Of a stretch of DNA of 64,000 nt, positions 11,423 to 30,062 are shown in pieces. The notes beneath the pieces are model-generated. The model ran no database searches. It had not been told where the DNA came from and saw nothing but the letters and a program-made list of their open reading frames with translations. Source of the DNA: a virus. The translations under genes and the position numbers were made by a program. How positions within the stretch are numbered: position 1 is the stretch's first letter; the number at the start of each line of letters is the position of its first letter. The stretch lies in the IMG/VR virus record IMGVR_UViG_3300031656_000001. One strand, 5' to 3'.

Positions 11423-12631
11423 TTAAAATAATGCCGAAGCGTAAATTAGGTTAGTGTCTAGCGTTTGTAATCCTATTGCCGTAAGCACTCTATTCAATGG
11501 ATCAATCATTGCTTTCTCAAATTGAGTATCGTAGTCCACTTTTGGTGCAATTTCATAAGGATGTTCGTTTGGTAGAAATGCATAAACCTCACTGATTGTA
11601 CCAATACAATTGTAGATCTTAAGCTTTTCACCATTTCCAATCAGCTTATACTTATTTTTATACTTCTTATTATTATTTAAAATATAATTATAGTATCCTG
11701 CTGCTTTTACATTTGCTGGACATTTTAGCCCAATCTGTAATTCTTCTTGATCATCTAAGATATACTTATCAATGTTGTTAGTTCTCTTATTAAATGAAAT
11801 ATTATCTATGTCAGTTAATTTGAATTCTTTCTTACATTTTTTCATATACTCTACAAGCAATTGTAACTCTGTTGCAGTTGGTTGTATTTCTGATCTAAAC
11901 AATATCTTAAGGCATTCTACTAAACGTTCTCTAGCAAACTTAGGTGTTGATGATTGTATTGTATCAAAACCAATTGTTTTTACTTTCTTAAGAGATGGAT
12001 GTCTATCTGTTACTGCTAGTTTATCGTCCCATGCAATGTTTTGAATGTATTTTTTCTTTGACATCCAAATTCCATTATATGCAAGAGATTCTAATTCAAA
12101 CATTAAGAAGTTATCTGTGTTTCTAACATCTGCATATTTCTCCATGCACTTTGTGATGTAGTCTCTTAATCTAAATGCATAGAACGCAAGAATAAACACA
12201 TCAATTTCCATCTTCTTAGATTCATCTTCCCAAATAATAGATTCGTATAAATCTTGAAACTGTACATAACATGAATCAGTATCAATATAAATTACTGAGG
12301 GTTTTTCAATCTTACCCTTGACTTTAATATTGAAGTGATTATGGACTGCAGTGTCCTTGTGCCAAAAATCATTAACATATTTGTTAAGTATTGTTTCAGA
12401 ATAAAGAATTGCATTTTTACCTTGTTTAGTTATAGATTCTGCTATGTCGATGTTGAAAAAGTGAAACCATTTGTTACCGAATGCACCATAAATAGAGTTA
12501 AGACTTAGTTTTACAGCCTGTTCATAAGCAGTGAATTTAGCAGAAAGCTGCTTGTAGTGGTCTACAAGCAACTTCGCCTCATCATCTGTTAGTTGATCAA
12601 TTGATTTATTTTCTAACTCTTCTATATTCAT
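11423..12631 (-). CDS. Family B DNA polymerase, C-terminal half (fingers helix, palm, thumb)
   Basis: Motif B KLSLNSIYGA, motif C YIDTDS, KKKY; no exonuclease or motif A. Confidence 0.93.
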   Translation of the reverse strand: MNIEELENKSIDQLTDDEAKLLVDHYKQLSAKFTAYEQAVKLSLNSIYGAFGNKWFHFFNIDIAESITKQGKNAILYSETILNKYVNDFWHKDTAVHNHFNIKVKGKIEKPSVIYIDTDSCYVQFQDLYESIIWEDESKKMEIDVFILAFYAFRLRDYITKCMEKYADVRNTDNFLMFELESLAYNGIWMSKKKYIQNIAWDDKLAVTDRHPSLKKVKTIGFDTIQSSTPKFARERLVECLKILFRSEIQPTATELQLLVEYMKKCKKEFKLTDIDNISFNKRTNNIDKYILDDQEELQIGLKCPANVKAAGYYNYILNNNKKYKNKYKLIGNGEKLKIYNCIGTISEVYAFLPNEHPYEIAPKVDYDTQFEKAMIDPLNRVLTAIGLQTLDTNLIYASALF

Positions 12632-15022: not shown

Positions 15023-16648
15023 TTAACCCTCGCAACTTGAACATTCAAGAATATCTCTTGCAAATGATTGCGCTGAACTTTGACTAAATTGATAGTAAAG
15101 CGTCTTAACGCCTTCTTCATGTGCATATAAATACAATTGATTAATATCCTTTGCTGGTACGCTTGGATGTATCATAATGTTTAACGATTGTGATTGATCA
15201 ATGAACTTTTGTCTCTGTGCCGCTTGTAATACGATTTCTTTTGGAGATAACTCAACAAATGATTTGAAAACTTCTTTAGTTGGAAAGTCTAAGTGTTGGA
15301 CAGATCCATCTCTTTTTAAAATATCTTCCCAAACTTGTGGAGTATTTAAATCATATTTGATTAATTCTTCAATAAGGAATGGGTTCTTATAGATAGTCTT
15401 TGACTTTGCCAAATCTTTAATAAAATAATTAGATTTGATTGGTTCAATACCCATAGAAACTTGTCCTAATATAAAAGAACTTGATTTAGTTGGTGCAACT
15501 GCAAGCAATGTTGTGTTTGCAAATCCAGGTCTAATTGATCTGTAACCTCTTTCGTCATGTAACCATTTAGATGCTTTTTCACTTCTTTCTTTTAAAGTAC
15601 TAAATATATCATGATTTAATCCCTTTGCTTGAATAGAATCAAATGTAATTAATTTAGATTGAAATAACGAGTGGTATCCAAGTACGCCTAATCCCAATGC
15701 TCTGTGTTGTTCAGCAAAACGATGTGCTCTTGCCATACCTGGCATATTTGTAGATTTCTTAACGAATTCATCCATTACTGCATTTAAGAATAATGTGTAT
15801 GTTTCGATTGCATCAGTATCTTTAATTTCATCCCAGTGTAAAAGGTTAATAGAACCTAAGCAACATACGAATGAATTAAAAGAATCTGTTGGTAACTGAA
15901 TCTCACTACATAAATTAGATGCTGTGATTTCTAAACCTAATTCTTTATATGGTGAATTGTTGTTTGAATTATCTTTAAACATAATATAAGGAAAGCCAAA
16001 TTCATTTCTCTTTTGAATAATCTTTGCCCATATTTTACGCTTATCAGAATCTCCAGCTTTCATTTCTGCAATCCATTCATCACCAACAGTAACTCCGAAT
16101 TGTAAGTTTTGAATAGGATTACCTTCACTACCAATATCTAAGAATTCTAAAATATCATTGTGTTCTACTGGTAACCAAGCTGCACATGCTCCACGTCTTG
16201 CTTCTGATTGTTTACATACATCAACTGTTGTATCATACATTCTAGCATAGTGTACTGGTCCATCTGCTGTACCTCCTGTTGAAATATTAGTTCCTCTTGA
16301 TCTAATATTTCCTAAATATACAGAAGTTCCTCCTCCGTATTTTGACATCATTCCTATTTCTCTACTTCCATTTAAGATGCTATCTAATGTATCATCAACG
16401 TTTGATCCATAGCAACTAACAGGAAGTCCTTTATCTTTTCCAAAGTTGATCCAAACTGGAGTTGATAAACTATAGAATCCGCGTTCCATATAATCTTCGA
16501 ACTTTCTCGCAAATCCATCAATTTTTAAATATCTCTCTGCTGTATTTGCGACATCTTTAATTCTTTGCTCTGGGGTTTCGTCAATATAACCCCTTGAAAG
16601 AAATTGCCTACTGTCTTCGTTAAGCCAGTAATTCTTTTCGTATTCCAT
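15023..16648 (-). CDS. nrdA: Ribonucleotide reductase alpha subunit, class I (Id/NrdAi-like), no ATP cone
   Basis: PVSC, GGGT, RRGA, SNLCSEI, CCLGS, APTKSSS, KTLYY, C-terminal CSSC. Confidence 0.95.
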   Translation of the reverse strand: MEYEKNYWLNEDSRQFLSRGYIDETPEQRIKDVANTAERYLKIDGFARKFEDYMERGFYSLSTPVWINFGKDKGLPVSCYGSNVDDTLDSILNGSREIGMMSKYGGGTSVYLGNIRSRGTNISTGGTADGPVHYARMYDTTVDVCKQSEARRGACAAWLPVEHNDILEFLDIGSEGNPIQNLQFGVTVGDEWIAEMKAGDSDKRKIWAKIIQKRNEFGFPYIMFKDNSNNNSPYKELGLEITASNLCSEIQLPTDSFNSFVCCLGSINLLHWDEIKDTDAIETYTLFLNAVMDEFVKKSTNMPGMARAHRFAEQHRALGLGVLGYHSLFQSKLITFDSIQAKGLNHDIFSTLKERSEKASKWLHDERGYRSIRPGFANTTLLAVAPTKSSSFILGQVSMGIEPIKSNYFIKDLAKSKTIYKNPFLIEELIKYDLNTPQVWEDILKRDGSVQHLDFPTKEVFKSFVELSPKEIVLQAAQRQKFIDQSQSLNIMIHPSVPAKDINQLYLYAHEEGVKTLYYQFSQSSAQSFARDILECSSCEG

Positions 16649-16670
16649 GTGTTTTAGTTTTTTAATAATT

Positions 16671-17648
16671 TTAAAATAAATCGTCTTCAGTTATTGACTT
16701 AGACTTCTTGTTGTAATCTACGCTTTTCTTATAAAAGAAATCGCCTTCTTTAGTTGATAGTATCTCTACGTCAAACCATAATGATTTTTCTAATTCAATA
16801 AGATCAATATCAAATATTGATTTCATTCCAATTCTATTTAATGAATTGTTAAATCTGTTTTTAATAAAGTTTTTAATATTTTCTTTAGATAAGAAATCAA
16901 GTTCACCTTTTTCAAATATCCAATCTAATATTTTGCATTCTGCTACATATGCTTTTTTACATGCTGAATCTATTAGTTGTTCGAATTCTTCATCGAACCA
17001 TTCAGGATTCTCTTCTTTAATAATATTGATCAATTCAGATCCAAAGTTTCCATGAATTTCTTCTTCTTTACTTGTAGCTTCGACAACATTAGAAATACCT
17101 TTAAAAAGATTCTTCTCTTTATTGAAAGACATCATAATAAAGAATTGACTAAACAAACTTACATGTTCAATGAATAAAGAAAATAATAACACTGATTTTG
17201 TGTACATTTTATTGTCTCTGCTTCTTGTTCCATCTAAATATTTAGTCAAGTATGCAATTCTGTCTTTAATTGCAGGAATCTCTACAACATGTTCGAACTC
17301 TTTTTCAAGTCCTAAGATTAATAGTAACTGTGCATATGCATCTTTATGTCTTACTTCAGATTCTGCAAATGTCATTCCAACATCTCCGATTTCTGTAATT
17401 GGCATTCTTTTATAAAGATCTGCCCAGAAAGTTTTAACATTTACCTCTATTTGCGCAATCGCAAGCATTGATCTTTTAATAACTTCTCGTTCTTTGGTTG
17501 AAATCTTAGTTTTAAAGTCATCGATATCTGTTGTAAAATTAAATTCTGTATGTATCCAATAAGAATGTCTGATAGCATCTTTATATGCCAAAAGCTGTGG
17601 ATATTGATATGGTAAAATGTTTACTCTTTTTTGAAAAATATCGCTCAT
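16671..17648 (-). CDS. nrdB: Ribonucleotide reductase beta subunit, class Id (NrdBi)-like
   Basis: AIAQIEVNVK, ESEVRHKDAY, EHVSLFSQF, KEEEIHG, DFF; Glu as first ligand plus nearby Lys as recalled for Flavobacterium class Id beta. Confidence 0.93.
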   Translation of the reverse strand: MSDIFQKRVNILPYQYPQLLAYKDAIRHSYWIHTEFNFTTDIDDFKTKISTKEREVIKRSMLAIAQIEVNVKTFWADLYKRMPITEIGDVGMTFAESEVRHKDAYAQLLLILGLEKEFEHVVEIPAIKDRIAYLTKYLDGTRSRDNKMYTKSVLLFSLFIEHVSLFSQFFIMMSFNKEKNLFKGISNVVEATSKEEEIHGNFGSELINIIKEENPEWFDEEFEQLIDSACKKAYVAECKILDWIFEKGELDFLSKENIKNFIKNRFNNSLNRIGMKSIFDIDLIELEKSLWFDVEILSTKEGDFFYKKSVDYNKKSKSITEDDLF

Positions 17649-17705: not shown

Positions 17706-19124
17706 TTATTTAATTCTATTTAATTTTTTTAATTTCTTTTCTAGCTTAGCAGCCTTCTCGTAATACGCATAAGAGGTCTTTTTATAGTCCTTTCTTTGCT
17801 CATATAAATCTGCTAATATTTTTTTAAGAATAGAATCTTCTTTTTTGAATACCACTCCGTTTTCACAGACAATTACCTTTTTGTCTTTTCGTCTTGTTGG
17901 AATTTCTGCTTCAGGTACTTGCTCAACATATGATTCGGGGGAAATATTAAATTGTCTCATTATTGAAGGATATAGCGATGCAAAATCAAATGCACTTACT
18001 CCACTATAATATCCAACAATTGGTTGCTTAACGAAAGCTCCTTCGAATTTACCTTCTTTAAGAGCATCGGCTTTACCATATTCTACACCAATCTTTTTAT
18101 TCTGTTCTGCAAGTTTTCTTGCAAGTAGTGATTCTGTAATCGCAACAGGTGATGATGCTTTATATAATGGCATCTTAGTAATGGTTGCTAGAGTTAAAAG
18201 AACTTCCATCGATTTTAACTGTTGATCTATATAGTATACTAAACATGAATCGACTACGTTGTAATAAATGTACTTAGTAAAATCATTTTCATATAGTTCT
18301 TGAAGTCCTCCAGAATATTTAATTTTCTTAACATCTAAAACTGCTCCTGAAACAAAGTCTAATGAATTAGATTCTTTAACAGCAACCGATCTATCATATT
18401 TGTCATATAATTGCATGTAATCTAAAATACCCATATGTAATGGACGACTATCCTTTCTATCTAACGCACCAGTGATTGCCACTTGCTCCATATCGATCTG
18501 TAATCGTTTACATCTATTGACTATATACTGCCAATCATAGTTGATGAAATTCCACCCTGTCATCATTGGGAACTTAGGTAAAAACTTATGCAAAAACGTA
18601 TATAACATATTATACTCATTATCAAATTTATGATATGAGAATTCCCAATCTTGGTCGTAGTCTTTGAAATGTTTGTTGGTATCTGCCTGTATTTTCTTCA
18701 TATCTTCCTGAGACATGTCTTCTAATCCTAATACAATTGCTTTACGTTCTGGTGTAATTATTGAAAACGATAGAATTCTAGTTTTAGCTTCTTCTGCTTT
18801 TGGGAAACCATCAACTATTTCTGTTTCAATATCTACAAAGTACGTTCGTGGCATATTAAATTCGTAGATCTCTTCCCTGTCTTTTTCTGGTAGAGAATCC
18901 ATGAAATATAATAAACTAAACTTGTTGAATGATTTAGCGTAACCTCTTTTTAGAGCTCTACCATCCCAATTTCTATATGTTGCATCTTTGTGTTTATCAG
19001 TATCTTTAGTTACTACCCAATTTTGGAATTGATTAACGCCATATCTTTTAAATGATACTTTGCCCTCTTTGTCGTAGTAAGAAATAATTAGTTCCCTGTC
19101 GGTTTGCTCAATATCTAATAGCAT
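17706..19124 (-). CDS. Family B DNA polymerase, N-terminal half (3'-5' exonuclease + motif A)
   Basis: ExoI DIET, ExoII GWN...YD..Y, ExoIII YNVVD, motif A FDFASLYPSIM, NISPE; ends after L...RK.YKK fingers helix. Confidence 0.93.
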   Translation of the reverse strand: MLLDIEQTDRELIISYYDKEGKVSFKRYGVNQFQNWVVTKDTDKHKDATYRNWDGRALKRGYAKSFNKFSLLYFMDSLPEKDREEIYEFNMPRTYFVDIETEIVDGFPKAEEAKTRILSFSIITPERKAIVLGLEDMSQEDMKKIQADTNKHFKDYDQDWEFSYHKFDNEYNMLYTFLHKFLPKFPMMTGWNFINYDWQYIVNRCKRLQIDMEQVAITGALDRKDSRPLHMGILDYMQLYDKYDRSVAVKESNSLDFVSGAVLDVKKIKYSGGLQELYENDFTKYIYYNVVDSCLVYYIDQQLKSMEVLLTLATITKMPLYKASSPVAITESLLARKLAEQNKKIGVEYGKADALKEGKFEGAFVKQPIVGYYSGVSAFDFASLYPSIMRQFNISPESYVEQVPEAEIPTRRKDKKVIVCENGVVFKKEDSILKKILADLYEQRKDYKKTSYAYYEKAAKLEKKLKKLNRIK

Positions 19125-19592
19125 TTAGTAGTTGTTTTTTTGGCGATTTACATTTTCTTCTGCTTTAGCGAAATAATAGTTGTATGCTGTTTTTGCATCC
19201 AAGCCAATAGAAGCTGCATAGTTAATAAAGAAATGGAGAATATCTACCCATTCCATAAATAATTCTTTCTTATCACCTTCGGAAAGATCTGATACTTTCA
19301 TCGTATCATATTTTGTAAAGTCTTTTTTCCAGTATTTCCAGACTGCATTTCCAGAACCATCTTTAATACCTCCAAGTGCATCTGTCATTTCATGTATCTC
19401 ATCAACTACTGCGTGAGTGTTAACATGCCAGAAATTCATTACCTCTCGTAACGTCATATCTTCAAAGTTAAAACCATAAGTCTGCTCTTGCATCTTTTTT
19501 TGGTTTTCCATGATGTCTGCTAAATGTGTTGTTGATTTGGTGTAAAAGTCTTTTACTTCAAGATCTTTGCATTCATTGTCTATATTTGCCAT
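19125..19592 (-). CDS. All-alpha dNTP pyrophosphatase (dimeric dUTPase / gp56 dCTPase-like)
   Basis: E..E, WKYWK, EWVDILHF, K..EN..RQ...Y. Confidence 0.85.
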   Translation of the reverse strand: MANIDNECKDLEVKDFYTKSTTHLADIMENQKKMQEQTYGFNFEDMTLREVMNFWHVNTHAVVDEIHEMTDALGGIKDGSGNAVWKYWKKDFTKYDTMKVSDLSEGDKKELFMEWVDILHFFINYAASIGLDAKTAYNYYFAKAEENVNRQKNNY

Positions 19593-19646
19593 TTTGTATT
19601 TTTTGTTATATTAATAATATGTGTATTTGATTAATAGTTTCAACTA

Positions 19647-20543
19647 TTATCTGTCCATTTCTAGAATTTGTCCCCATTCTCTTTGAGAGTCTGTTATAAT
19701 TTTTGTTTGATCAGATTCTGGTCTAGGATCTCCACCTACATTCCAGAACCATGCTCCTGGTTTTCCATGTTTCTTCATAAATTCCCATGCTTTTGCATCG
19801 TAGTTATATGCACTTGGAAATGGTGGCATTTGATCAAGACTTACGTTTTGATTAAATGGTTTAGGATGAGACCACATTTCAGCTCTACCTCTTTCACCTG
19901 TTTTGATATTACGAGCAACTGCAACTGCATGAAAATCTGCATCAGGCCATGCAATCTGTAATGATCTTTGTAATACTCCTGTAGAAATTGCTGACCAAAC
20001 TTCTTCTGGATATCCGTGTTTTTCTGCAAGATCATATGCAACTTTCACTGCGGCTGCTGTAACTAATTCGTGCTTAAGTCCTAGTGGAATAAACGTTGCG
20101 TTGTTATCTTCTGCCCATCTTTTAGCATGTGCGTTAAGGTTTGGCATAGCAGCAACTCTTTTAAATTTCATTTCTGCTCCACGTTCAATACATATCGCTT
20201 GATGATCTGAAATTTCTTTTTGTGATGGACTAAATAATACTAATTTTTTATTGTATTTTTCTGCAAGATATGCAAGTGATATACCTGCAAATCCACACCT
20301 TGGCTGTACATATACTAATGTATCTGTTGGTGCTGATTGAACTAAGATATCACCAAACCTGCATTTAGAACCAAATCCCATTAAATCTTCTCTTACGACT
20401 TTAAATCCATCATGTTCTGTGATAACTGGTTCTGAAAATGGATCTTTCCAATCTCCTGCTAAATCTAACCAAGCTTGACGATTTGGCATCATCAGATTAA
20501 TATCTTGATTCATTAGACTTTTTGTGTGTTTGTTATGTGCCAT
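19647..20543 (-). CDS. PLP-dependent enzyme (fold type II) of phage DNA-hypermodification type
   Basis: VVREDL...GSK.R (PLP lysine), G.AG.SLA, S..STG, YDAKAW, FWNVG. Confidence 0.75.
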   Translation of the reverse strand: MAHNKHTKSLMNQDINLMMPNRQAWLDLAGDWKDPFSEPVITEHDGFKVVREDLMGFGSKCRFGDILVQSAPTDTLVYVQPRCGFAGISLAYLAEKYNKKLVLFSPSQKEISDHQAICIERGAEMKFKRVAAMPNLNAHAKRWAEDNNATFIPLGLKHELVTAAAVKVAYDLAEKHGYPEEVWSAISTGVLQRSLQIAWPDADFHAVAVARNIKTGERGRAEMWSHPKPFNQNVSLDQMPPFPSAYNYDAKAWEFMKKHGKPGAWFWNVGGDPRPESDQTKIITDSQREWGQILEMDR

Positions 20544-20546
20544 ATT

Positions 20547-21224
20547 TTAAAAGTTTGTTTTGTTGCTACCTAAATAACCAGGTGCGGTCATTTCCTTATT
20601 GTGATATTCCATAATTTTATCTCTTGCTTCCACTGCAGTATCTACGATTCTAAATAAGTCAAAATCCGATGGACTCATTTTATTACTTTCCAATACAGTA
20701 TCTTTTAGCCAATCAATTAATCCTGACCAATAATCTTTTCCAACTAATACTATTGGGTATTTTACGTTGTGACCACATTGAGCTAATGTAATTGCTTCAA
20801 ATAATTCATCTAGAGTTCCAAGTCCTCCTGGAAATACAACGAATCCTTGCGAATATTTTAAGAACATTACCTTTCTTGTAAAAAAGTATCTGCATTCCAT
20901 TCCTAAATCAACATATTTGTTCATACCTGATTCAAATGGCAATTCAATGCCAATTCCTATAGAATTACCTGAAACTTCATGAGCTCCGTGATTTGCTGCA
21001 GCCATTATTCCTGGACCTCCGCCTGTAATTACTCCGAATCCTTCACATGATATAAGCTTAGCAAATTCTCTTGCTTCGTTATACCATTTACTACCTTGTT
21101 TTGTTCTTGCACTTCCGAATATCGATACACATGGTACATCTATTTCATTAAAAGTGTCAAATCCTTTTGTAAATTCTCCTTGAATTCTTAGAATTTGCCA
21201 TGCATCATCTGCTTTATTTTTCAT
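20547..21224 (-). CDS. LOG-family (SLOG) nucleotide phosphoribohydrolase, TIGR00730-like
   Basis: SIFGSAR, ITGGGPGIM, YFFTRK, PGGLGTLDELFE. Confidence 0.92.
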   Translation of the reverse strand: MKNKADDAWQILRIQGEFTKGFDTFNEIDVPCVSIFGSARTKQGSKWYNEAREFAKLISCEGFGVITGGGPGIMAAANHGAHEVSGNSIGIGIELPFESGMNKYVDLGMECRYFFTRKVMFLKYSQGFVVFPGGLGTLDELFEAITLAQCGHNVKYPIVLVGKDYWSGLIDWLKDTVLESNKMSPSDFDLFRIVDTAVEARDKIMEYHNKEMTAPGYLGSNKTNF

Positions 21225-21235
21225 CTTGTTTGTAT

Positions 21236-22375
21236 TTATTCGTTAGGGTAATTCTTACCCCAAATGTGACGTGTTGTTTCTGCGTTTACGATAACATCCT
21301 CTGTTGGATGTTTTGCTAAATTAAATGCTCCATCAAAGATCCAAGTATATGGAATTCTTTTAGTGGGAGATTTAATACCATGACTGATTGCGATGTGTTT
21401 GTAAAAAAAACATGTTTTATCCTCTACATTTAACATCGTTTGAGTAGTCATTGGATTACTTGGATGATCTGATAAAACTTGCATTTGTCTAATCCATTCT
21501 TCAGCATGTTTATTCTCTGCTATAAATTGACCATCTTCGTCAATTGAGTATTTTACTTTACCATTTAAGTTTGGTCCTCCAAAGATTTGCATCATACCAT
21601 CAAAATGTCCAGTTCCACCAAAAAGCACTGATTCTGGATCAACTAGATCCGGTCTACTCATTGCAACATATCTTGCAGTGTTTTTACATGGATATAATGG
21701 ACTTCTAAAGTTTTGATGTTCTTTAAAATAAGCTTCTAATATTTTAGCAAATTCCATCATAGTGTATGGTCTTTCTAAATTCTCTAAAATATGAGCCATA
21801 TCTTTGGCTGCTTTTTTAGGTCCTTCTAATAACCAATCCTTAACTATTGTGCCCTTTGGATAATATATTTGAAATAGATCATTACGAGCATGTCTGTTTT
21901 CAACAAAGTGTTTTCTTGTTTTTACTTCACCGTCATTGATCAATCTATTAATAGTTCCCCAATGTTCATTACTAAAAGAAAATACTATTGTATAATATAA
22001 TAGCTTTTCTAAATCTGTTTCATGTTTCATCATATAACAATATGGATGTTCATGCCAGTGTAATCTATGTGAGAATATTTGGTAATCTTCTAAAAGTAAG
22101 CTGTCTTGTCTCTTATCAAAAGCATGACAGAATTCAAAGAATTTATCAAATCTTTCTTCTTGAGTCCAATCCTTCATCCAACTTTCCATTGGTTTTCCCT
22201 TTTTCATTAGGATTTCAGAAGTGCCTTTATATGATATATTGTGTTTGTTCATTTTGTCATTTCCGTTAAATTCAAACAAACTATTTTTTAAAAAGTTTGC
22301 ATTACTTGAACCATTTTTTGGATTAAATTCAATTATAAGTTTCGTATCCTTTTCCAATTCTTGTTCTTTATTCAT
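21236..22375 (-). CDS. Amino-acid:DNA transferase (aGPT-pyrophosphorylase)-like protein, paralog 2
   Basis: D.LL..YQIF..R, GTG..DG...IF, E..C.FYK patterns align with the aGPT-Pplase1 layout as recalled; paralogous to neighbour. Confidence 0.55.
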   Translation of the reverse strand: MNKEQELEKDTKLIIEFNPKNGSSNANFLKNSLFEFNGNDKMNKHNISYKGTSEILMKKGKPMESWMKDWTQEERFDKFFEFCHAFDKRQDSLLLEDYQIFSHRLHWHEHPYCYMMKHETDLEKLLYYTIVFSFSNEHWGTINRLINDGEVKTRKHFVENRHARNDLFQIYYPKGTIVKDWLLEGPKKAAKDMAHILENLERPYTMMEFAKILEAYFKEHQNFRSPLYPCKNTARYVAMSRPDLVDPESVLFGGTGHFDGMMQIFGGPNLNGKVKYSIDEDGQFIAENKHAEEWIRQMQVLSDHPSNPMTTQTMLNVEDKTCFFYKHIAISHGIKSPTKRIPYTWIFDGAFNLAKHPTEDVIVNAETTRHIWGKNYPNE

Positions 22376-23594
22376 ATGTCGTTGGTAGTATACTATTTAT
22401 TTTGCTTTTATATTCGGCGGCCGTTAGGTTAACAGATGCTATAACTTTGTCATCTGATGGAAATGATGTGATACCATTGAATGTGTCTACTAGACCTAAT
22501 TCTAACATCGCTTTCTGTCTTCCATATGGATGATCTAATATAAATGAACTGTTCCAAATACCATCAAAGTCTATATGATTATATGCCGCGCCCGGTCTTA
22601 AATAGTTTTCAATCCATCTAATAAAATCACATGCTACATCTTCAGCATTATATGGTAAGCTTCCTGTATCTTCGTATATTCTTGTCATTACTGCATCCAA
22701 GAATTCTTCACTCTTTTTACCTTTCTTTTCAACAGGATCTGCAAGATATCCAATGCATTCTACTGCATTTGTACCATAATAAAACATTGATTCTCTGTTT
22801 ACATATTCTGGATACCAATCTGCTAAATCTGCAAGAACTGCAGCATACTGGAATCTATAAGCTCTTAGGCCATTATCAGCATTCCACTTAAACATCCATT
22901 CTCCGATCTCTCTTAAATCTTTTTTACCGTCACTTCTTAAAAAGACAGCTAAGTCTCTTGAAAGTCTTGGTGCAAATTCACATAAGAAATAATCTCCGCC
23001 TCTTTTGTAAACATATTCAGGTTCTGTAAACGATTCCATACCTACAAAACTATCTTCATTACCTGAAGGCTTTGGTGGTTTAGGAAATGCTGGAAACTGA
23101 TAACCAACTGAAGTATAAAATGGCGTAGGATGATATTTAATAACCTCGCACATTTCTTCAATTGTTTTACATTCATGTAATGCAAAGATAACTGTGTTGT
23201 GATAACCAGATGGTTTGGTAGCATAATTAATTGCACTACCACAAACTCGATGTAGAATAAACAGATATAACCATTCTTCTAATCCAAAGTCTTTGTGCTT
23301 TCCAGTCCAGTTTTTGGCAACTTCTTCTCTTTGAGGGAATATTTTGCCGGCTTTCATGTGTTCCCAATATGGATGATCTTCTGTCCAACCATAAAAACAA
23401 TCGTTTATGATCTGACTAAAACCTGCATATTTTCTTTCCACTACATCATATAAGTGCACGTGTTCCATTAAAGGATCATTCATGCCGCTTTCTTCATGTG
23501 GTACAATACCTAAGTTACTAAGCTCTTGCTGTTTCTTAGCAAGTTCAAAGTATCTCAAAAACTCATCGTAATATTTAGTAGTTTTTATTTCCAT
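22368..23594 (-). CDS. Amino-acid:DNA transferase (aGPT-pyrophosphorylase)-like protein, paralog 1
   Basis: DPLM....YDVV.R, ADL, GTNA..C, ED..CDF.RW patterns; next to PLP enzyme. Confidence 0.6.
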   Translation of the reverse strand: MEIKTTKYYDEFLRYFELAKKQQELSNLGIVPHEESGMNDPLMEHVHLYDVVERKYAGFSQIINDCFYGWTEDHPYWEHMKAGKIFPQREEVAKNWTGKHKDFGLEEWLYLFILHRVCGSAINYATKPSGYHNTVIFALHECKTIEEMCEVIKYHPTPFYTSVGYQFPAFPKPPKPSGNEDSFVGMESFTEPEYVYKRGGDYFLCEFAPRLSRDLAVFLRSDGKKDLREIGEWMFKWNADNGLRAYRFQYAAVLADLADWYPEYVNRESMFYYGTNAVECIGYLADPVEKKGKKSEEFLDAVMTRIYEDTGSLPYNAEDVACDFIRWIENYLRPGAAYNHIDFDGIWNSSFILDHPYGRQKAMLELGLVDTFNGITSFPSDDKVIASVNLTAAEYKSKINSILPTTYE

Positions 23595-23595
23595 C

Positions 23596-23739
23596 TTATT
23601 CTATGATTTTCCATTTGAATGGATTTCTATTTCTTTGATATTGTTCCATAACCCACTCTATATCCTTTGTTTTTATTTCAAACGAATAAGATTCTTTAGT
23701 GTCGTCATGTGGTGTGATGAGTATTTTGTATTTTTTCAT
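23596..23739 (-). CDS. Small hypothetical protein (47 aa)
   Basis: Manual translation MKKYKILITPHDDTKESYSFEIKTKDIEWVMEQYQRNRNPFKWKIIE; exactly fills the gap (1-3 nt spacing). Confidence 0.7.
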   Translation of the reverse strand: MKKYKILITPHDDTKESYSFEIKTKDIEWVMEQYQRNRNPFKWKIIE

Positions 23740-23742
23740 ATT

Positions 23743-24837
23743 TTAAAAAAGTGACATAGTTTGTTTAATTAATTTAGCATTAGGTTCATTACTGGTTAAA
23801 TCCCATCTGTAATATTCCCTGGCGATATGAACTGATTTTGGCTTTTCCATTACGTCAAATGTTAATTCATTTTTAGAATTATAATAAACTTCTGGATGTT
23901 TATGTGATTGCCAATTATTTCTTTCACACATACTGTCTATACCATCATTGATTTCTTTGACCAATGCAGTTCTTTGTGCCCATGTTCCTGCAAATGGTGT
24001 ATCTTTATAATACCCTGTTTTTGGTAAAGCTCTACTTTCATTTTCAATTGGTAATACATGAACAACTTCTATTTCTTTTATTCCACGTTCGTACATTTCA
24101 CGTAGTTCATTTTCAAAGTCAATTAGTATTGTTTTAACTGAAGCTGACGGGTTACTTTGTCTCATTAAATGGTGTCGCACATCAATGTTGCCCATGTAAA
24201 CCCTAAGAGATTTGACCCATGGGTATATGTATGCATCTAAACCTTTTTTGAGTGCGCCATGCATAGTCAAACCATCATGACGTTGTGTCATATAACCTGG
24301 TGTATACTGACTAAATGAATGGCTATCACCAAAGCACAGTTTATCAGTTTTTTCAATGCAATCAATTCTTGGAATATCTACAGCGCATATTTCCTTTATA
24401 TGATCAACTTGAGAATATCCATCCGGTCGTACATCGCCTAATTGTTTAAACAAATCAGTTCCAGTATGTAATCGTTGATCAATCAACTTGCCAATACATG
24501 GCATGTCATGATGTAAAGAATAAATCAACGTACTGCTAAAAATTCTCATGATTTGATGATATAAATCATCATTAGCGCCTCCGAATATATTGAAGGTACC
24601 TTTGAATTCCATACCATGTTCTAATAGAATTGCATCAAAGTCATCCCAGTTTGTTGTAATATCTGTGATCACTTCTACGTTTTCATAGCCAGCATTCACA
24701 CATTGATTTGCTAGGTGAAATGCCCAACCTGATTTATGCGAGCTAATTTTTGGACTTAATTTACCAACCAATGCTGCTATTCCAATTTTAGCAGACTTAT
24801 CTGAAATATAGTCAGTAAGATATTTGAATTCTGTCAT
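23743..24837 (-). CDS. Hypothetical protein with C-terminal SGNH/GDSL-like domain
   Basis: FGDSHS (block I), GNID (block III G-x-x-D), SVH near C-terminus (block V His). Confidence 0.55.
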   Translation of the reverse strand: MTEFKYLTDYISDKSAKIGIAALVGKLSPKISSHKSGWAFHLANQCVNAGYENVEVITDITTNWDDFDAILLEHGMEFKGTFNIFGGANDDLYHQIMRIFSSTLIYSLHHDMPCIGKLIDQRLHTGTDLFKQLGDVRPDGYSQVDHIKEICAVDIPRIDCIEKTDKLCFGDSHSFSQYTPGYMTQRHDGLTMHGALKKGLDAYIYPWVKSLRVYMGNIDVRHHLMRQSNPSASVKTILIDFENELREMYERGIKEIEVVHVLPIENESRALPKTGYYKDTPFAGTWAQRTALVKEINDGIDSMCERNNWQSHKHPEVYYNSKNELTFDVMEKPKSVHIAREYYRWDLTSNEPNAKLIKQTMSLF

Positions 24838-24843
24838 ATGTAA

Positions 24844-25146
24844 TTATTTAATAGGATCTTCAGTTTCACCATAACCATGTTTTTCAACATAATTATCAAG
24901 AGCACCTAAATATGCAACCGCATCTAATAGATTATCTTGTTTATAGTTATAAGAGTGTCGGCTTAATTTCAATGCAACAAGTGCAGCATACATATCAGAT
25001 CCGTTAAGATCTTTACCAGTCATGCCATTGAAAACCATAGCAGCTCTACGCATACCTTCTTCAAATGGACCATATTGTCTGGCCTTTTCTTCTGATCGCT
25101 CGTTAACAATTTTATTAGCTTCAGCTAAAATATTTAATTTACTCAT
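24844..25146 (-). CDS. DUF6378-like all-alpha putative nucleotide pyrophosphohydrolase
   Basis: IL.EA..IV, QYG, LKL.R, DN.LD...Y pattern. Confidence 0.6.
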   Translation of the reverse strand: MSKLNILAEANKIVNERSEEKARQYGPFEEGMRRAAMVFNGMTGKDLNGSDMYAALVALKLSRHSYNYKQDNLLDAVAYLGALDNYVEKHGYGETEDPIK

Positions 25147-25262
25147 GTCTCGTGTTTATTATTATATGAAGGTTTGACATTTTGTTTAGAAATTCTAGGA
25201 CAATTTGTCTATTATTCTAAACATAACAATATCACTTGTTTTATTATACTACTAATATAAAC

Positions 25263-25333: not shown

Positions 25334-26152
25334 TTAATACTCAAATGGAGGTGTTCCGTAATCTGCTCTTTTAACAGCGAACCACATTCTTCCTATAACG
25401 AAATACCAGAATCTATCTGTTTCAATTATATAGTGTTCTCCTTTAGGACTCGTAGACTTATAACCACCTCTTGTGAAGTTCTTAGTTACAGGTACTCCGT
25501 CTTCCCATGTTTTATCAGTTGATTGTGCTTTGAATGATTTACCACTAAATGTAGCTAAATGAATTTCTGGATTCATCTTATCAGATTCCATATCTTCTGC
25601 AAATTGATCTATGCCTCTTGGTTTTTGAGCATCTGCTTCATTAACTTTAGATTCATTAAATGATTTCATCCATTCTGCTAATACATTTCTTGCTTCGCTT
25701 TTACTAAGATCAAACTCTTTTTGTAAATATGGAGCTGCACCAAACATATTGGTTTTACCAGAATCTCTTAGTGTTAATAGAAAGTCATAATAAATTCTAT
25801 CTTGATCTGAAGTTTTATCAACTCTAGATTCGTTTACTTTAGAATAAAGTCCTTTATCTCCGTTCCATTCCCAATCAGCTTCATCAAAACCTTTAAGTTT
25901 TTTAGCTTTTTGATAATCTTCAGATGACAAATGAGATTGTTTAAGATTTACTCCTTCTGATATGAAAGATTCTAATGTTTTTAAGTGTTTCATTCTTTTC
26001 TTTTTCTTTTTATATTCTTCTTCGGCATCGCCACTACCAGCTGGTACATCACCAGAACCTAATGTTCCGTTGCCCGGTAATTCTACTGGACCCATACCTG
26101 ACATTGCTGCGGTTGAAACTGTTTCTGTTAATTTTTTGCTAATATCTGACAT
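25334..26152 (-). CDS. Multi-module protein with internal CTS-like tag
   Basis: Internal MKHLKTLESFISE (ATG 25993); modules bounded by ISE/VNE; contains LRDSGKTNMFGAAPYL module. Confidence 0.55.
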   Translation of the reverse strand: MSDISKKLTETVSTAAMSGMGPVELPGNGTLGSGDVPAGSGDAEEEYKKKKKRMKHLKTLESFISEGVNLKQSHLSSEDYQKAKKLKGFDEADWEWNGDKGLYSKVNESRVDKTSDQDRIYYDFLLTLRDSGKTNMFGAAPYLQKEFDLSKSEARNVLAEWMKSFNESKVNEADAQKPRGIDQFAEDMESDKMNPEIHLATFSGKSFKAQSTDKTWEDGVPVTKNFTRGGYKSTSPKGEHYIIETDRFWYFVIGRMWFAVKRADYGTPPFEY

Positions 26153-26153
26153 A

Positions 26154-26474
26154 TTAAGCTTCTAAAAACTTTTTAGCTGCGTCTAATAACTCAGCATATG
26201 TGAACTTACTAGATAATGCATTTGATAAAACAGTTCCATCTTTTTTACCGGAAGCGTACATATCTGTACTATCAAATCCAATTCCTTCTGACCATGGTTT
26301 TTTAGGATCAAATCCTAGATCTGAAGAAAGAGATTGTGCCAATGAAGTGTTTCCTCTAAATTGATCGTCATATGATAATTTATCATCTCCGAATGTAGAA
26401 GGATCTACTGTTTTTCTACCTTCTGTTACTGTTTTCTTTGAGATAAATTCCTCGTATAATTTAGTGCGTTTCAT
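26154..26474 (-). CDS. CTS-like-leader protein (start revised to ATG 26474)
   Basis: MKRTKLYEEFISKKTVTE; upstream ORF-track extension overlaps the previous gene. Confidence 0.6.
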   Translation of the reverse strand: MKRTKLYEEFISKKTVTEGRKTVDPSTFGDDKLSYDDQFRGNTSLAQSLSSDLGFDPKKPWSEGIGFDSTDMYASGKKDGTVLSNALSSKFTYAELLDAAKKFLEA

Positions 26475-26481
26475 AACTGTT

Positions 26482-27531
26482 TTATTTTTGGTATCTTTTA
26501 ATGTCTTTAATACTATCCCAAACCTTCTTGGCACAATCTTTTATATTTCTTTTATGATATGCCATATCATAACCAGCGTTATATTCGTGCGCATCTAGAT
26601 CAGTGTAATGTACATATGTTGAAAATCTATTCAATAGAAAGTCCATGTGTTGCAAAATACCTGATATTTTATATTTATGGCTACCAGTACCTATCAGAAT
26701 ATCACCTTTCGAATCTCTATGTCCGCGAGCATTTGCGTTTGCAATAATCTCACCTATTAATTCTGTCGCTTCTTTAACTTTCTTATCAAGTGGCATTGCA
26801 AGAGCTCGATCTGCTATGATATCTTGATATCTTGCATGTGTTTGTTTTCTAAAGTCTTTATCTGATATGAATGCAGTTGCTCCTTTCTGAGCAGCTTTTC
26901 TTTCATCTTTAAGGTTTACCGTAGAATATCTTGCAGTAAGAATATCTAAATCAAGACAATAGCATATATCTGCAGTTCTTGCTACTTTCATAACAGTATC
27001 TAGACCTGTATTTCCTTTGTCGATTCCTGCTGAATCTTTCCTTTTAGATTGTTGAAGTTCTTGATGTCCATCAACATCAGGTACAATAGTTGCATATTTA
27101 AGGTTAGAACCATGTCGTGTGTATTTATTATCTTTAGCCCAATCAATATTCATCCATTTATTATCTACATTAGTAATTGCCAATAAAGTATTTGCTGGAA
27201 TAATACCACCGTTGTATATTGATATTTCTTCATCTTTATCATATGGATTTTGTATATGGTAATCGTTTTCTTTTTCATCTGTTACAAAGTACATGTATAC
27301 TGCGTTTGCTCGTTTTTCTCTCCTAGCAACCATTGGATCCAATTCGATGATATCTTCATCTTTTATTTTATCTAATTTAAGTTTAGTCATTTTGTAAAAT
27401 GCAGCTGGAAGACCTTCTGGTAATTTATTAGCACCTGTTAATATATTTGCTAATTTAGTAGAAGCAAATGCTTCGTTTAATGATGAATCTGATTCGTTTA
27501 TGAATTGTTCAAATAATTTAATGTGTTTCAT
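26482..27531 (-). CDS. CTS-like-leader protein, paralog of 27564..28556
   Basis: MKHIKLFEQFINE...LNEAFASTKLANILTG; shared KL.LDK..DEDII..DP, YST.N...ER..A..GA.AF.SDKDF blocks. Confidence 0.7.
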   Translation of the reverse strand: MKHIKLFEQFINESDSSLNEAFASTKLANILTGANKLPEGLPAAFYKMTKLKLDKIKDEDIIELDPMVARREKRANAVYMYFVTDEKENDYHIQNPYDKDEEISIYNGGIIPANTLLAITNVDNKWMNIDWAKDNKYTRHGSNLKYATIVPDVDGHQELQQSKRKDSAGIDKGNTGLDTVMKVARTADICYCLDLDILTARYSTVNLKDERKAAQKGATAFISDKDFRKQTHARYQDIIADRALAMPLDKKVKEATELIGEIIANANARGHRDSKGDILIGTGSHKYKISGILQHMDFLLNRFSTYVHYTDLDAHEYNAGYDMAYHKRNIKDCAKKVWDSIKDIKRYQK

Positions 27532-27534
27532 ATC

Positions 27535-27566
27535 TGTTTTATTATTGTTTTATTATTGTTTTATTA
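27535..27566. repeat. Tandem 11-bp repeat (tgttttattat) x~3 in intergenic leader
   Basis: Seen directly. Confidence 0.8.
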
Positions 27567-28556
27567 CCAAGCGTATGTCATGTCTTCAATTTTCTTGATA
27601 TTATCAGCACATCTTTTTGCATATTCTTTTGCAGATTTACCATACCAATTAGAAGCTTTACCATATGCTTTGATTTCATCTTCTTCTTGTCTAACATAAT
27701 CAGCATATCTAGAGTAGTCATCTAATATATTGTTCATGTGCTGAGAAGCATCTCTTAATTTAACTTCTTTACCTTTTGATGATTTACCAATCATCGGATC
27801 ACCATATCTTGTTTTTTCACCAGACTTTAATCCAGATTTGATTTGTTCTGCTAATGAATCAATTGCATCTGCAACCATTTTGTCTAATGGTAATTTTGAA
27901 GCTTTAGTTGCTAAAATTTCTTGGTATCTTGTCATGTTATCAGATTTGAAATCTTTATCAGATTTGAATGCGATTGCACCTGATTTAGCAGAATTTCTTT
28001 CAGCTCTTATGTTCGCTGTTGAATATTTTTGTTGTAATAATGTTAAATTGATTACAATTGCTCTATCAGCAACTTCTGCAATTCTTTTAACATTATAAAG
28101 TCCCGTTGCATCCCAACCTTTATACTTCTTAGAAATACCTATGGAATCTGCTGGATTATTTCCTGTTCTAATCAATCCTCTTTTCCATGTGTTTTCATAA
28201 AAACTATTATCTCCCGATGCAAGTGCTAATAAATAACCTCCACCTGGTATAACTTTGCTACTTTCGTATGCGTCGCTTGGTGCATATGGATTTTCTTTTT
28301 GATTATCTGAAATATAAAATACGATTGCGTTATCAGACTTCTCTTTATATGCTGTCATTGGATCAGTCACTATAATATCTTCATCTTGTACTTTGTCTAA
28401 CGCTAATTTAGTTTTACCATAAAATGCCTTAGTTAATGATTTGTCAGCTTTAGAGCCTTTACCTGTTAATATGCCCGCTAATATAGCTGAAGCAAATGAT
28501 TCATTTAAAGATTCTGTGAATTCTTCGAATGATTCGAATAAAAATTTGTGTTTCAT
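27564..28556 (-). CDS. CTS-like-leader protein, paralog of 26482..27531
   Basis: MKHKFLFESFEEFTESLNESFASAILAGILTG. Confidence 0.7.
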   Translation of the reverse strand: MKHKFLFESFEEFTESLNESFASAILAGILTGKGSKADKSLTKAFYGKTKLALDKVQDEDIIVTDPMTAYKEKSDNAIVFYISDNQKENPYAPSDAYESSKVIPGGGYLLALASGDNSFYENTWKRGLIRTGNNPADSIGISKKYKGWDATGLYNVKRIAEVADRAIVINLTLLQQKYSTANIRAERNSAKSGAIAFKSDKDFKSDNMTRYQEILATKASKLPLDKMVADAIDSLAEQIKSGLKSGEKTRYGDPMIGKSSKGKEVKLRDASQHMNNILDDYSRYADYVRQEEDEIKAYGKASNWYGKSAKEYAKRCADNIKKIEDMTYAW

Positions 28557-28597
28557 GTTTATATTGTTTTGTTTATTGTTTTGTTTTTAATATGATT

Positions 28598-30043
28598 TTA
28601 ATCTGATTCTGAGCCAATTATTGCAATCTGAGGTATACCATTGTAAAAATCAATAACCGATTCCGATACATCAAGAATGTCCGATACTGCGCGGTGCATG
28701 TGGTTTATCTGCTTACCATATTCGCCATCTTCTCTTAAATATATTATAATTGAATTTGGTGAAACTGAGCCCTTTCCAACATCAGTTGTTTCTGGATAGT
28801 TACCTCTACCTGAATATCTAGTAGAAATTACTTCGGCTTTAAGCATATCTTTCCAATATTCTTGGAATCGACCAGTTCTTAATGTAACTCTAATGAAATC
28901 ACGATGTTTCAATTCTAATGAAAGTTCTAGCTCCTCGCCTCCATTTGTCCATTCAGCACGAATCTGTTCCTTTAGGTTAGCATTAACACCTTTTAAAATT
29001 GCTGATTTTACCTTTTTTAAATCTGAAGGATTATTCATATAATCCATACTAGTTGGATTCTTATAATCTTCAACTTCTTCATTCCACAATGACTTTACTG
29101 TTTCTTTAATACCTGGAAATGGAAATTGTCTTTTTCCAATTTTTAACGACTTGATGTTAAAACGACTTCTTGTAGCCTCGTTTAAAGATTCTGTGAATTC
29201 TTTAAAGCTTTCAAATATAAAATTTGTTTTCATGTTATTGTTTTGTTTATTTTCTATTACTAATTTTGGATTCTTGTTTAAAAGCTCTTCCATATCTAAT
29301 TCGGTTAATGCCATAAAACTGTCTTCACCGTATTTTTTGGCTAATTTGTCAGCTCTCTTTATGTTTATTACTCTTGCAATCTCATCATATGATAATGTTG
29401 CTATTCCGAATTCTCCGAATATTTCTTCTGCATTTGCATTTGCTATTTTAAAAGCACTTGCCTTTTCATTAATATCTGGTGTATTTATAACCGGAGTTAA
29501 TTCGTTAAGTACTCTTTTACCTGTTTTAGAAAGTGTAATTCCATCTTCGCTTACATTTAAATAAGTAGAGTTTCTTCTCATCCATCTGCCAGAATCCGTA
29601 GTCATTTCTCTTAAAATCGTATTGAATTCTTCTTTGGTAATTTTACCATCTTTGATAGCTTCTAAAACTTTGTTTCTGATTTTAGCTGCTTTACCAACTT
29701 TAACTGCTGGGTGATTTTCAGTATACTTTCGTTTTACTGTGATGTGTCTTTCAGTTAATGACTCTTCTAATTTCTTAGCTGCTAATTTAGAATCTTTTTT
29801 AGAAACGTTATCTAAATAAGAACCTTCTCCCCAAAAAGAAATAACTGCCTTAGTATCTGCAGTAGAATGGAATCCAGAACCTGCTTTGTAAATTGCAATT
29901 TCTTGTAAACCTTTTTTGTTTTCTATAGCATCAGACATGAATGCTCTTGCATCTTTTTCTGATTTAAACTTTTTTGCAGCTCTTATCCCATCAGAATAAT
30001 GTACTTCGAAATTTTCATTTATGTGATTGTCAAATGTATCCAT
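28598..30043 (-). CDS. Multi-module protein with N-terminal and internal CTS-like tags (start revised to 30043)
   Basis: MDTFDNHINE; internal MKTNFIFESFKEFTESLNE (ATG 29233); late promoter-like site at 30063-30071. Confidence 0.6.
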   Translation of the reverse strand: MDTFDNHINENFEVHYSDGIRAAKKFKSEKDARAFMSDAIENKKGLQEIAIYKAGSGFHSTADTKAVISFWGEGSYLDNVSKKDSKLAAKKLEESLTERHITVKRKYTENHPAVKVGKAAKIRNKVLEAIKDGKITKEEFNTILREMTTDSGRWMRRNSTYLNVSEDGITLSKTGKRVLNELTPVINTPDINEKASAFKIANANAEEIFGEFGIATLSYDEIARVINIKRADKLAKKYGEDSFMALTELDMEELLNKNPKLVIENKQNNNMKTNFIFESFKEFTESLNEATRSRFNIKSLKIGKRQFPFPGIKETVKSLWNEEVEDYKNPTSMDYMNNPSDLKKVKSAILKGVNANLKEQIRAEWTNGGEELELSLELKHRDFIRVTLRTGRFQEYWKDMLKAEVISTRYSGRGNYPETTDVGKGSVSPNSIIIYLREDGEYGKQINHMHRAVSDILDVSESVIDFYNGIPQIAIIGSESD

Positions 30044-30062
30044 TTTTAATTTGTTTGTTTTA

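What the first reader, a model, noticed from the sequence alone, without database searches (positions are those of the whole stretch)
19125..25188. DNA hypermodification operon with an unusual enzyme set (two transferase paralogs, PLP, LOG, SGNH-like, two pyrophosphatases)
Seen: a tightly packed unit from a promoter motif at 25161-25188 runs DUF6378-like, SGNH-like, 47-aa ORF, two paralogous 408/379-aa proteins, LOG and PLP enzyme, followed by a dUTPase/dCTPase and PolB-N. Known: in phages ViI and M6, aGPT-Pplase amino-acid:DNA transferases plus a PLP decarboxylase hypermodify 5-hydroxymethyluracil after a 5hmU DNA kinase activates it. Here no kinase or dUMP hydroxymethylase is visible in the window, while LOG and SGNH-like genes are not part of those described pathways. 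Inference: a new hypermodified base chemistry, possibly with two different substituents or an acyl tailoring step.
Basis: partly seen in the sequence, partly recalled or inferred. Interest (0 to 1): 0.8.

Follow-up and report, generated by a model that had tools for sequence, protein, structure and literature searches.

The report
Kinase-less phage cytosine hypermodification operon
This phage operon carries distant relatives of the enzymes that attach amino acids to thymine in other phages' DNA, but its relatives tie it to hydroxymethylcytosine and have a glucosyltransferase-esterase hybrid where the usual DNA kinase would be, so the phage DNA probably carries a cytosine modification not yet described chemically.

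Summary
The genes, their order and the promoter are real. The core is DUF6378, SGNH, A408, PLP enzyme and dCTPase (53 of 53 spanning loci); B379 (23/53) and LOG (10/53) are optional. A408 folds like the PaMx11 amino acid:DNA transferase (AADT; best PDB match, Z 9.8) and keeps its E-x-x-x-C catalytic motif. B379 is a distant paralog with the same motif. The PLP enzyme is homologous to M6 gp52.

(1) The base is probably cytosine, not 5hmU: relatives encode a normal ThyA plus a T4 gp42-type dCMP hydroxymethylase, and a complete 256-kb relative has no 5hmU-kinase match. (2) The 'SGNH-like' protein is a chimera: a T4 beta-glucosyltransferase-like N-domain plus an SGNH domain with its catalytic residues intact. 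It is fused to the A408 domain in seven distant clusters, and to an AADT-like domain in cultured Aeromonas phage 44RR2.8t.

Best model (inferred, about 45%): SGNH O-acylates 5hmC in place of the kinase, AADT swaps in an amino acid, and the PLP enzyme decarboxylates it. No chemistry was shown, and this phage's own gp42 was not seen. Not found in the literature searched; this scan noted the same cassette earlier in other genomes.

The parts
25161..25188 (-). Promoter-like element (TAAACAAA ... TATAAT), 14 bp upstream of DUF6378
   Evidence: Sequence; AAACA...TATAA arrangement in most related loci. Function inferred.
24844..25146 (-). DUF6378 protein, 100 aa; core gene; nucleotide pyrophosphohydrolase role presumed, not tested
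   Evidence: PF19905 E 9e-12; also next to the SGNH-AADT fusion in distant loci L118 and L120
23743..24837 (-). 364-aa chimera: T4 beta-glucosyltransferase-like N-domain (res. 16-112) plus SGNH domain (res. 163-353; S172, G189, N217, H337, E331). Candidate 5hmC-DNA O-acyltransferase
   Evidence: AF2 pLDDT 90.3; SGNH fold Z about 14; residues invariant in 29/29; BGT profile match prob 93.7, E 1.8e-7, score 54 against at most 22 for 40 shuffles; in 53/53 loci
23596..23739 (-). 47-aa conserved small protein, no family match
   Evidence: Homologs in 47/53 loci; no Pfam or PHROG match
22368..23594 (-). A408: AADT/aGPT-PPlase-like helix-hairpin-helix protein; core transferase candidate; E318-D319-x-x-C322
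   Evidence: AF2 pLDDT 94.7; best VIA match 8z2m PaMx11 gp46, Z 9.8, rmsd 3.9, 209 aligned, then HhH glycosylases; E318 in 81/82 and C322 in 80/82 homologs; fused behind SGNH in 7 clusters
21236..22375 (-). B379: optional distant paralog of A408, also E318-D319-x-x-C322
   Evidence: hhalign against the deep A408 profile prob 88.8, E 2.5e-6; ESM Atlas neighbours carry PF18723/PF18724 on 12-57% of members; motif 34/34; 23/53 loci
20547..21224 (-). LOG-family nucleotide phosphoribohydrolase; accessory, probably nucleotide-pool function
   Evidence: PF03641; E 4e-68 to PDB 5zi9; 10/53 operons; outside the operon in G001 (next to ThyA) and G006 (about 2.5 kb from gp42)
19647..20543 (-). Fold-type II PLP enzyme homologous to M6 gp52 (DNA-acting decarboxylase); K60 aligns with gp52 K36
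   Evidence: PALP E 1e-4, phrog_7093 E 2e-39; family HMM against M6 gp52 E 9e-11; 53/53 loci; next to the fusion in L117-L122
19125..19592 (-). T4 gp56-type dCTPase/dUTPase
   Evidence: BLASTP E 3e-18 to T4 gp56 and 2e-21 to 44RR2.8t gp56; phrog_173
17706..19124 (-). N-terminal half of a split family-B DNA polymerase, directly abutting the dCTPase gene
   Evidence: PF03104/PF00136; gap 0 bp; 52/53 loci

Best explanation
The operon decorates 5-hydroxymethylcytosine (5hmC) in phage DNA after replication, without a DNA kinase. Step 1 (inferred from relatives): a gp42-type dCMP hydroxymethylase encoded elsewhere, with the operon's gp56-type dCTPase, puts 5hmC in place of C. Step 2 (inferred): the BGT-N/SGNH chimera binds the flipped 5hmC with its glucosyltransferase-derived acceptor domain and O-acylates the hydroxymethyl group through a Ser172 acyl-enzyme. 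This makes a leaving group, the job phosphate does in M6, ViI and PaMx11. The acyl donor is unknown. Step 3 (fold and motif shown, reaction inferred): A408 adds Cys322 to C6, with Glu318/Asp319 holding the metal, expels the acyl group, and a free amino acid attacks the exocyclic methylene. B379, where present, does the same with another nucleophile or sequence context. Step 4 (homology shown, reaction inferred): the PLP enzyme decarboxylates the appended amino acid. LOG and DUF6378 serve the nucleotide pool. The broader claim, that this is a 5hmC hypermodification cassette, is about 0.75 likely. The confidence below is for this specific order with SGNH as activator.
For: A408's best match among 48,161 solved chains is the AADT PaMx11 gp46. 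E318/C322 match its Glu243/Cys247 in spacing (PMC11472151) and are near-invariant. SGNH, A408 and PLP occur together in 53/53 loci and in 31/31 long loci of a second scan seeded with the SGNH family. SGNH is fused to the A408 domain in 7 distant clusters. Distant compact cassettes read DUF6378-fusion-PLP-TS-MazG (L120) and DUF6378-fusion-PLP-TS-dUTPase with two short ORFs between (L118). In these loci and in close relatives the second or adjacent TS homolog has Asp at ThyA positions 169 and 177 (L118, L120, L121, G001, G004, G006, G008, G012, 44RR2.8t); the G004 one is closest to T4 dCMP hydroxymethylase, E 2.7e-20. No PF18748 kinase in the complete relative G006 or in 44RR2.8t, while ViI and M6 score. 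The N-domain matches the domain of T4 BGT, an enzyme that acts on 5hmC DNA. O-acylation of 5hmC has a precedent in 5-carbamoyloxymethylcytosine (PMC8670742).
Against: No biochemistry. This window's own gp42 was not seen, because no genome is held. The A408 fold match is modest: Z 9.8 on a helical protein, within about 1 of a queuine salvage enzyme at Z 8.6; Foldseek gave E>0.1 and Pfam AADT models hit only 1 of 82 members each, below cut-off. SGNH homologs also occur with no AADT-like partner found, in Aes508 and in PTm1; PTm1's TS homolog has the D169N signature of 5-hydroxycytosine synthases, where methylene displacement cannot occur. The position of BGT Asp100 is not conserved across the family (D in 21/29). 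G006 encodes two small unassigned P-loop proteins and L121 a thymidylate-kinase-like gene beside its TS, so an unrecognised kinase is not excluded.
Confidence: 0.45

Rival explanations
1. Same 5hmC pathway, different order. A408 needs no leaving-group enzyme (or uses an unrecognised kinase), and the BGT-N/SGNH protein is a tailoring or parallel acyltransferase: it acylates the appended amine or hydroxyl, or caps remaining 5hmC as an ester, much as PaMx11 gp48 acetylates 5-NmdU.
For: SGNH homologs stand without a detected AADT in Aes508 (beside a UDP-galactopyranose mutase) and PTm1. From my own knowledge, not checked here: cysteine attack at C6 lets C5-cytosine methyltransferases couple thiols to unactivated 5hmC. 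A late acetylation step has a precedent (PMC8989533).
Against: The BGT-like N-domain suggests the acceptor is 5hmC itself. SGNH is obligate with A408 and fused to it, whereas tailoring enzymes in the thymine pathways are the variable part (PMC8989533). All characterised AADTs use an activated substrate.
Confidence: 0.27
2. The SGNH domain is a hydrolase, not a transferase: it removes an acyl group from a DNA intermediate or releases the nucleophile (or the acyl group) that A408 uses.
For: Most structural neighbours are esterases. The fold does not separate hydrolase from transferase.
Against: No other core gene could install an acyl group. O-acetyltransferases PatB and OatA are also among the matches.
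Confidence: 0.1
3. One reading: thymine hypermodification on 5hmU, with a hydroxymethylase and kinase encoded outside the window.
For: All characterised AADTs and gp52-type PLP enzymes act on 5hmU DNA (PMC8989533). The window's own genome could not be searched.
Against: Syntenic relatives have canonical ThyA (Asn177) plus an Asp177 dCMP-type enzyme. No 5-HMUDK match in a complete relative; phmmer with M6 gp54, ViI gp243 and the ViI gp67 locus finds no kinase there. TET/JBP was not searched.
Confidence: 0.08
4. A408 and B379 are base-excision or DNA-binding HhH proteins (repair, or attack on host DNA), and the operon is a loose nucleotide-metabolism cluster.
For: After the top AADT match the fold neighbours are a queuine salvage enzyme and glycosylases, Z 6-8.6.
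Against: Invariant E-D-x-x-C motif; fixed linkage to an M6 gp52 homolog and a dCMP hydroxymethylase across unrelated phage backgrounds.
Confidence: 0.08

Closest known systems
Thymidine hypermodification pathways of phages M6, ViI, PaMx11, PhiW-14 and SP10 (dUMP hydroxymethylase, 5-HMUDK, AADT, PLP decarboxylase; PMC8989533, PMC11472151)
   Same: AADT-type HhH fold with E-x-x-x-C; gp52-type PLP enzyme; modular cluster with variable members.
   Different: No 5-HMUDK match; linked TS homolog is dCMP-type and ThyA is retained; obligate BGT-N/SGNH partner; A408 and B379 are below Pfam PF18723/PF18724 cut-offs.
T4 5hmC system (gp42 dCMP hydroxymethylase, gp56 dCTPase, beta-glucosyltransferase)
   Same: gp56 homolog in the operon; gp42 homolog in relatives; the 364-aa protein's N-domain is homologous to BGT residues 1-101.
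   Different: The UDP-glucose-binding C-domain is replaced by an SGNH domain; a BGT profile finds no full-length BGT in the complete relative G006.
5hmC carbamoyltransferase making 5-carbamoyloxymethylcytosine (PMC8670742)
   Same: O-acylation of the 5hmC hydroxyl in phage DNA.
   Different: Unrelated enzyme family; the product there is reported as an end modification; no AADT or PLP partner noted in the passages read.
Aeromonas phage 44RR2.8t ORF233c and relatives (uncharacterised)
   Same: SGNH-like N-half (35% identity) fused to a helical domain with a weak PF18723 hit and an E-x-x-x-C; genome has gp42 and gp56 and no PF18748 kinase.
   Different: Its helical domain is not detectably similar to A408 or B379; tblastn found no homolog of this PLP enzyme in it; it follows a sodium:solute symporter gene.

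Membership tests
AADT / aGPT-PPlase superfamily (A408) | HhH glycosylase-like fold closest to a solved AADT | tested here: met
   Best match 8z2m, Z 9.8, rmsd 3.9, 209 aligned; next rows Z 8.6 and 8.0. Modest margin.
AADT / aGPT-PPlase superfamily (A408, B379) | Catalytic Cys with upstream metal-binding Glu (PUGT E243-T244-x-x-C247) | tested here: met
   E318 81/82, D319 74/82, C322 80/82 in A408; 34/34 in B379. Equivalence rests on motif and C-terminal position; a residue-level superposition was not available.
AADT / aGPT-PPlase named clades (PF18724, PF18723) | Score above the Pfam cut-off | tested here: not met
   No hit for the window proteins; 1 of 82 homologs each at E 0.001 and 0.01. 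A separate, unnamed clade.
AADT / aGPT-PPlase superfamily | Transfer of an amino acid or amine to DNA | not testable with these tools
   Needs reconstitution.
Thymidine (5hmU) hypermodification pathway | 5-HMUDK kinase (PF18748) | tested here: not met
   0 of 12 clade records including complete G006; ViI and M6 positive. The window's own genome could not be searched.
Thymidine (5hmU) hypermodification pathway | dUMP hydroxymethylase supplying 5hmU | tested here: not met
   Relatives have ThyA (N177) plus a D169/D177 dCMP-type enzyme. TET/JBP not searched.
Thymidine (5hmU) hypermodification pathway | gp52/gp226-type PLP enzyme with the aldimine lysine | tested here: met
   K60 aligns with M6 gp52 K36; HMM E 9e-11 to gp52, only E 0.004 to ViI gp226.
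SGNH hydrolase/acyltransferase superfamily (res. 163-353) | Fold plus Ser, Gly, Asn, His of blocks I, II, III, V | tested here: met
   Z about 14; S172, G189, N217, H337 in 29/29. The usual D-x-x-H is absent; invariant E331 may stand in.
T4 beta-glucosyltransferase (GT-B) | N-terminal acceptor domain homology | tested here: met
   hhalign prob 93.7, E 1.8e-7; shuffled decoys at most 22 against 54. The domain was not folded and searched alone.
T4 beta-glucosyltransferase (GT-B) | C-terminal UDP-sugar-binding Rossmann domain | tested here: not met
   The C-domain is SGNH.
LOG family | Full-length sequence match to solved LOG enzymes | tested here: met
   PF03641 E 2e-31; E 4e-68 to 5zi9.
MazG-like pyrophosphohydrolase (DUF6378 gene) | All-alpha NTP-PPase fold and activity | not tested
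   Only the DUF6378 assignment was obtained.

The most novel reading that the evidence does not exclude
A widespread class of amino-acid- or amine-bearing cytosine modifications in phage DNA, made by an acylation-activated route in which a BGT-N/SGNH hybrid enzyme replaces the DNA kinase and AADT chemistry, so far known only on uracil, acts on 5hmC.
Probability: 0.45. Interest if true: 0.85.

Novelty: new variant of a known kind. Interest (0 to 1): 0.7.

Why it matters
The amino acid:DNA transferase pathways in the papers read here all start from phosphorylated 5hmU. If this reading holds, the same chemistry runs on cytosine without a kinase, through an enzyme architecture (BGT acceptor domain plus SGNH) that I did not find described. 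The A408 family is common in metagenomes (952 clusters at 90% identity). It would add a new base to phage counter-defence and a possible 5hmC-labelling enzyme. It can be tested now, because cultured Aeromonas phages 44RR2.8t and 31 carry the fusion, and 44RR2.8t has gp42 and gp56.

Tried and rejected
BLASTP and shallow-profile comparisons of A408 with B379 were negative; only the deep profile worked. Sequence searches of A408 and SGNH profiles against PDB found nothing meaningful. Foldseek on A408 had no E<0.001 match. tblastn of A408 and B379 against cultured phages found nothing. A408/B379 profiles do not detect M6 gp51, gp55, ViI gp247 or the 44RR2.8t C-domain. Whole-chain fold searches of the 364-aa model were filled by SGNH matches and did not list BGT, so the N-domain fold is untested structurally; the Atlas feature search on residues 1-160 gave no usable hit. 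My impression that Aes508 gp220 is BGT-like was not supported. LOG as a pathway enzyme is rejected on patchy presence and relocation. Literature searches found no description of this cassette; the 2013 computational paper that named the aGPT-PPlases is not held, so a mention there is not excluded. No complex prediction was run.
Full report
Observation. The window is a 32% GC phage segment with almost all long ORFs on the minus strand. It is collinear with IMG/VR record G001 (212 kb, 76% complete), mostly at 45-90% protein identity; the complete relative G006 is 256 kb. The promoter-like stretch at 25188-25161 is real, and its AAACA...TATAA layout recurs upstream of DUF6378 in most relatives. 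No whole genome is held for the window, so everything outside it is inferred from relatives.

Core and accessory genes. Of 80 viral loci found with A408, 53 span DUF6378 to the dCTPase. SGNH, A408 and PLP are in all 53, the 47-aa ORF in 47, B379 in 23 and LOG in 10; B379 and LOG come and go separately. A second scan seeded with the SGNH family gave 31 long loci, partly overlapping the first set, all with A408 and PLP and 18 with B379. In G001 a 69% identical LOG lies beside ThyA, and in G006 near gp42. LOG is therefore best read as a mobile nucleotide-pool gene (closest solved relative 5zi9).

A408 and B379. Neither hits Pfam or PHROGs meaningfully. A profile search gave 162 clusters at 50% identity. 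An 82-sequence alignment produced a confident model (pLDDT 94.7). Its best match among 48,161 chains is PaMx11 gp46, the solved glycine:DNA transferase (Z 9.8, rmsd 3.9, 209 residues), followed by a queuine salvage enzyme and HhH glycosylases. That margin is modest, but the motif agrees: gp46 uses Glu243/Thr244 for the metal and Cys247 as nucleophile (PMC11472151), and A408 has E318-D319-x-x-C322, with E in 81 and C in 80 of 82 sequences. B379 has the same motif in 34/34, matches the A408 profile (prob 88.8, E 2.5e-6), and its ESM Atlas neighbours carry PF18723/PF18724 on 12-57% of members. Both work like AADTs by fold or profile and motif; neither belongs to a named Pfam clade.

The 364-aa protein. 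Residues 163-353 are an SGNH domain (Z about 14) with S172, G189, N217 and H337 invariant. Residues 16-112 match T4 beta-glucosyltransferase 1-101, including N-I-F-G-G against N-F-F-G-G (prob 93.7, E 1.8e-7; best of 40 column-shuffled decoys 22 against 54). I noted this resemblance before consulting earlier scan notes and tested it afterwards. The protein thus appears to join BGT's acceptor-side domain (role from my own knowledge of BGT) to an acyl-enzyme domain. Seven distant clusters fuse it to the A408 domain. Their neighbourhoods repeat the module in unrelated phage backgrounds: DUF6378-fusion-PLP-TS-MazG (L120), DUF6378-fusion-PLP-TS-dUTPase with two short ORFs between (L118), TS...PolA-fusion-PLP (L121), fusion plus PLP (L117, L119). 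Among cultured phages it occurs in Aeromonas 44RR2.8t/31 (fused to a helical domain with a weak PF18723 hit and E-I-A-C-C), Aes508/25 and Tenacibaculum PTm1.

Which base. G001, G004 and G006 each encode a canonical ThyA and a second thymidylate-synthase homolog. The second is closest to T4 dCMP hydroxymethylase (E 2.7e-20). It has Asp at ThyA position 177, a position tied to substrate specificity (PMC13326640) and Asp in T4 gp42, and Asp at 169, so not the D169N 5-hydroxycytosine type. The same holds for G008, G012, L118, L120, L121, 44RR2.8t and Aes508. The ORF at 19125-19592 is a T4 gp56 dCTPase homolog (E 3e-18). PF18748 (5-HMUDK) finds nothing in 12 clade records, including complete G006, nor in 44RR2.8t, while ViI and M6 score E 1.6e-117 and 1e-19. 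The evidence points to 5hmC, not 5hmU. G006 does encode two small P-loop proteins of unknown substrate far from the operon.

PLP enzyme. A family profile matches M6 gp52 at E 9e-11, K60 aligns with the proposed aldimine lysine K36, and the Y-D-x-K-A-W motif is shared (PMC8989533). A DNA-acting decarboxylase is the simplest reading.

Mechanism. Known AADTs need a leaving group on the hydroxymethyl carbon. Here the kinase is missing, and a base-binding enzyme with an acyl-enzyme active site is the obligate, often fused, partner. I propose O-acylation of 5hmC, displacement by an amino acid through Cys322, then decarboxylation (0.45). The main rival keeps the pathway but makes SGNH a tailoring or parallel acyltransferase (0.27). 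It is favoured by Aes508 and PTm1, which have the SGNH gene with no AADT found, PTm1 with a D169N-type synthase beside sugar-nucleotide genes. Shown: genes, folds, motifs, linkage, fusions, and the absence of a recognisable kinase in relatives. Inferred: every reaction, the donor, the nucleophile and the product.

Novelty. Six literature searches found no description of this cassette; one key computational paper was unavailable. Earlier agents of this scan reached the same reading on other genomes; that is repetition, not independent evidence. The parts come from known systems, so this is a new variant of a known kind. The base, the missing kinase and the hybrid enzyme would still surprise specialists, and a cultured phage makes it directly testable. 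Interest 0.7.

Noticed in passing
window 17706-19124 and 11423-12631 (-): The family-B DNA polymerase is split into two genes separated by nrdB, nrdA and other ORFs; the split is conserved in relatives.
   Followed up: partly
window 15023-17648 and 19125-19592 (-): nrdA/nrdB are only 30-38% and the dCTPase 51% identical to G001 although flanking genes are about 80%; two alternative types alternate at the same site across relatives.
   Followed up: no
window 25334-30088 (-): A run of ORFs sharing an F-E-x-F...N-E type motif, including two similar proteins of 349 and 330 aa; number and length vary between relatives. Possibly internal head proteins (unverified).
   Followed up: no
L038:9191-9988, L053:3217-3672, L057:12597-13178, L001:6105-6716: Other genes inserted in the operon in relatives: CitG-like, cytidylyltransferase-like, FkbM methyltransferase and a NUMOD3 protein that may be a homing endonuclease.
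   Followed up: partly
L219:4020-6990: A408 and B379 homologs preceded by an HhH-GPD glycosylase, with no SGNH or PLP gene called in the 13-kb locus.
   Followed up: partly
L221:3914-6852 (Tenacibaculum phage PTm1 gp165-167): Nucleotidyltransferase fusion, histidine phosphatase and a TS homolog with D169N/D177: looks like a glycosylated 5-hydroxycytosine cluster as in RB69/DLP3.
   Followed up: partly
L082:4366-5889 (44RR2.8t ORF234c): Sodium:solute symporter directly upstream of the SGNH fusion; may import the nucleophile. Aes508 has a UDP-galactopyranose mutase and an unassigned 358-aa ORF at the same site.
   Followed up: no
L084:6894-9316 and L085:6378-8696: Homologs of the PLP enzyme (34%) are fused to an N6/N4 methyltransferase in Erythrobacter phage vB_EliS_R6L and follow two ParB genes in Microcystis phage Mae-JY30.
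   Followed up: no
L099:7774-10327 (G001): A cysteine-synthase-like PALP enzyme, ThyA and LOG in one run, near ClpA, gp42 and ClpP genes.
   Followed up: no
L192:6570-6956 and L201:16667-17386 (G006): Two small P-loop proteins (AAA_33; AAA_33/Zeta) of unknown substrate, far from the operon.
   Followed up: partly
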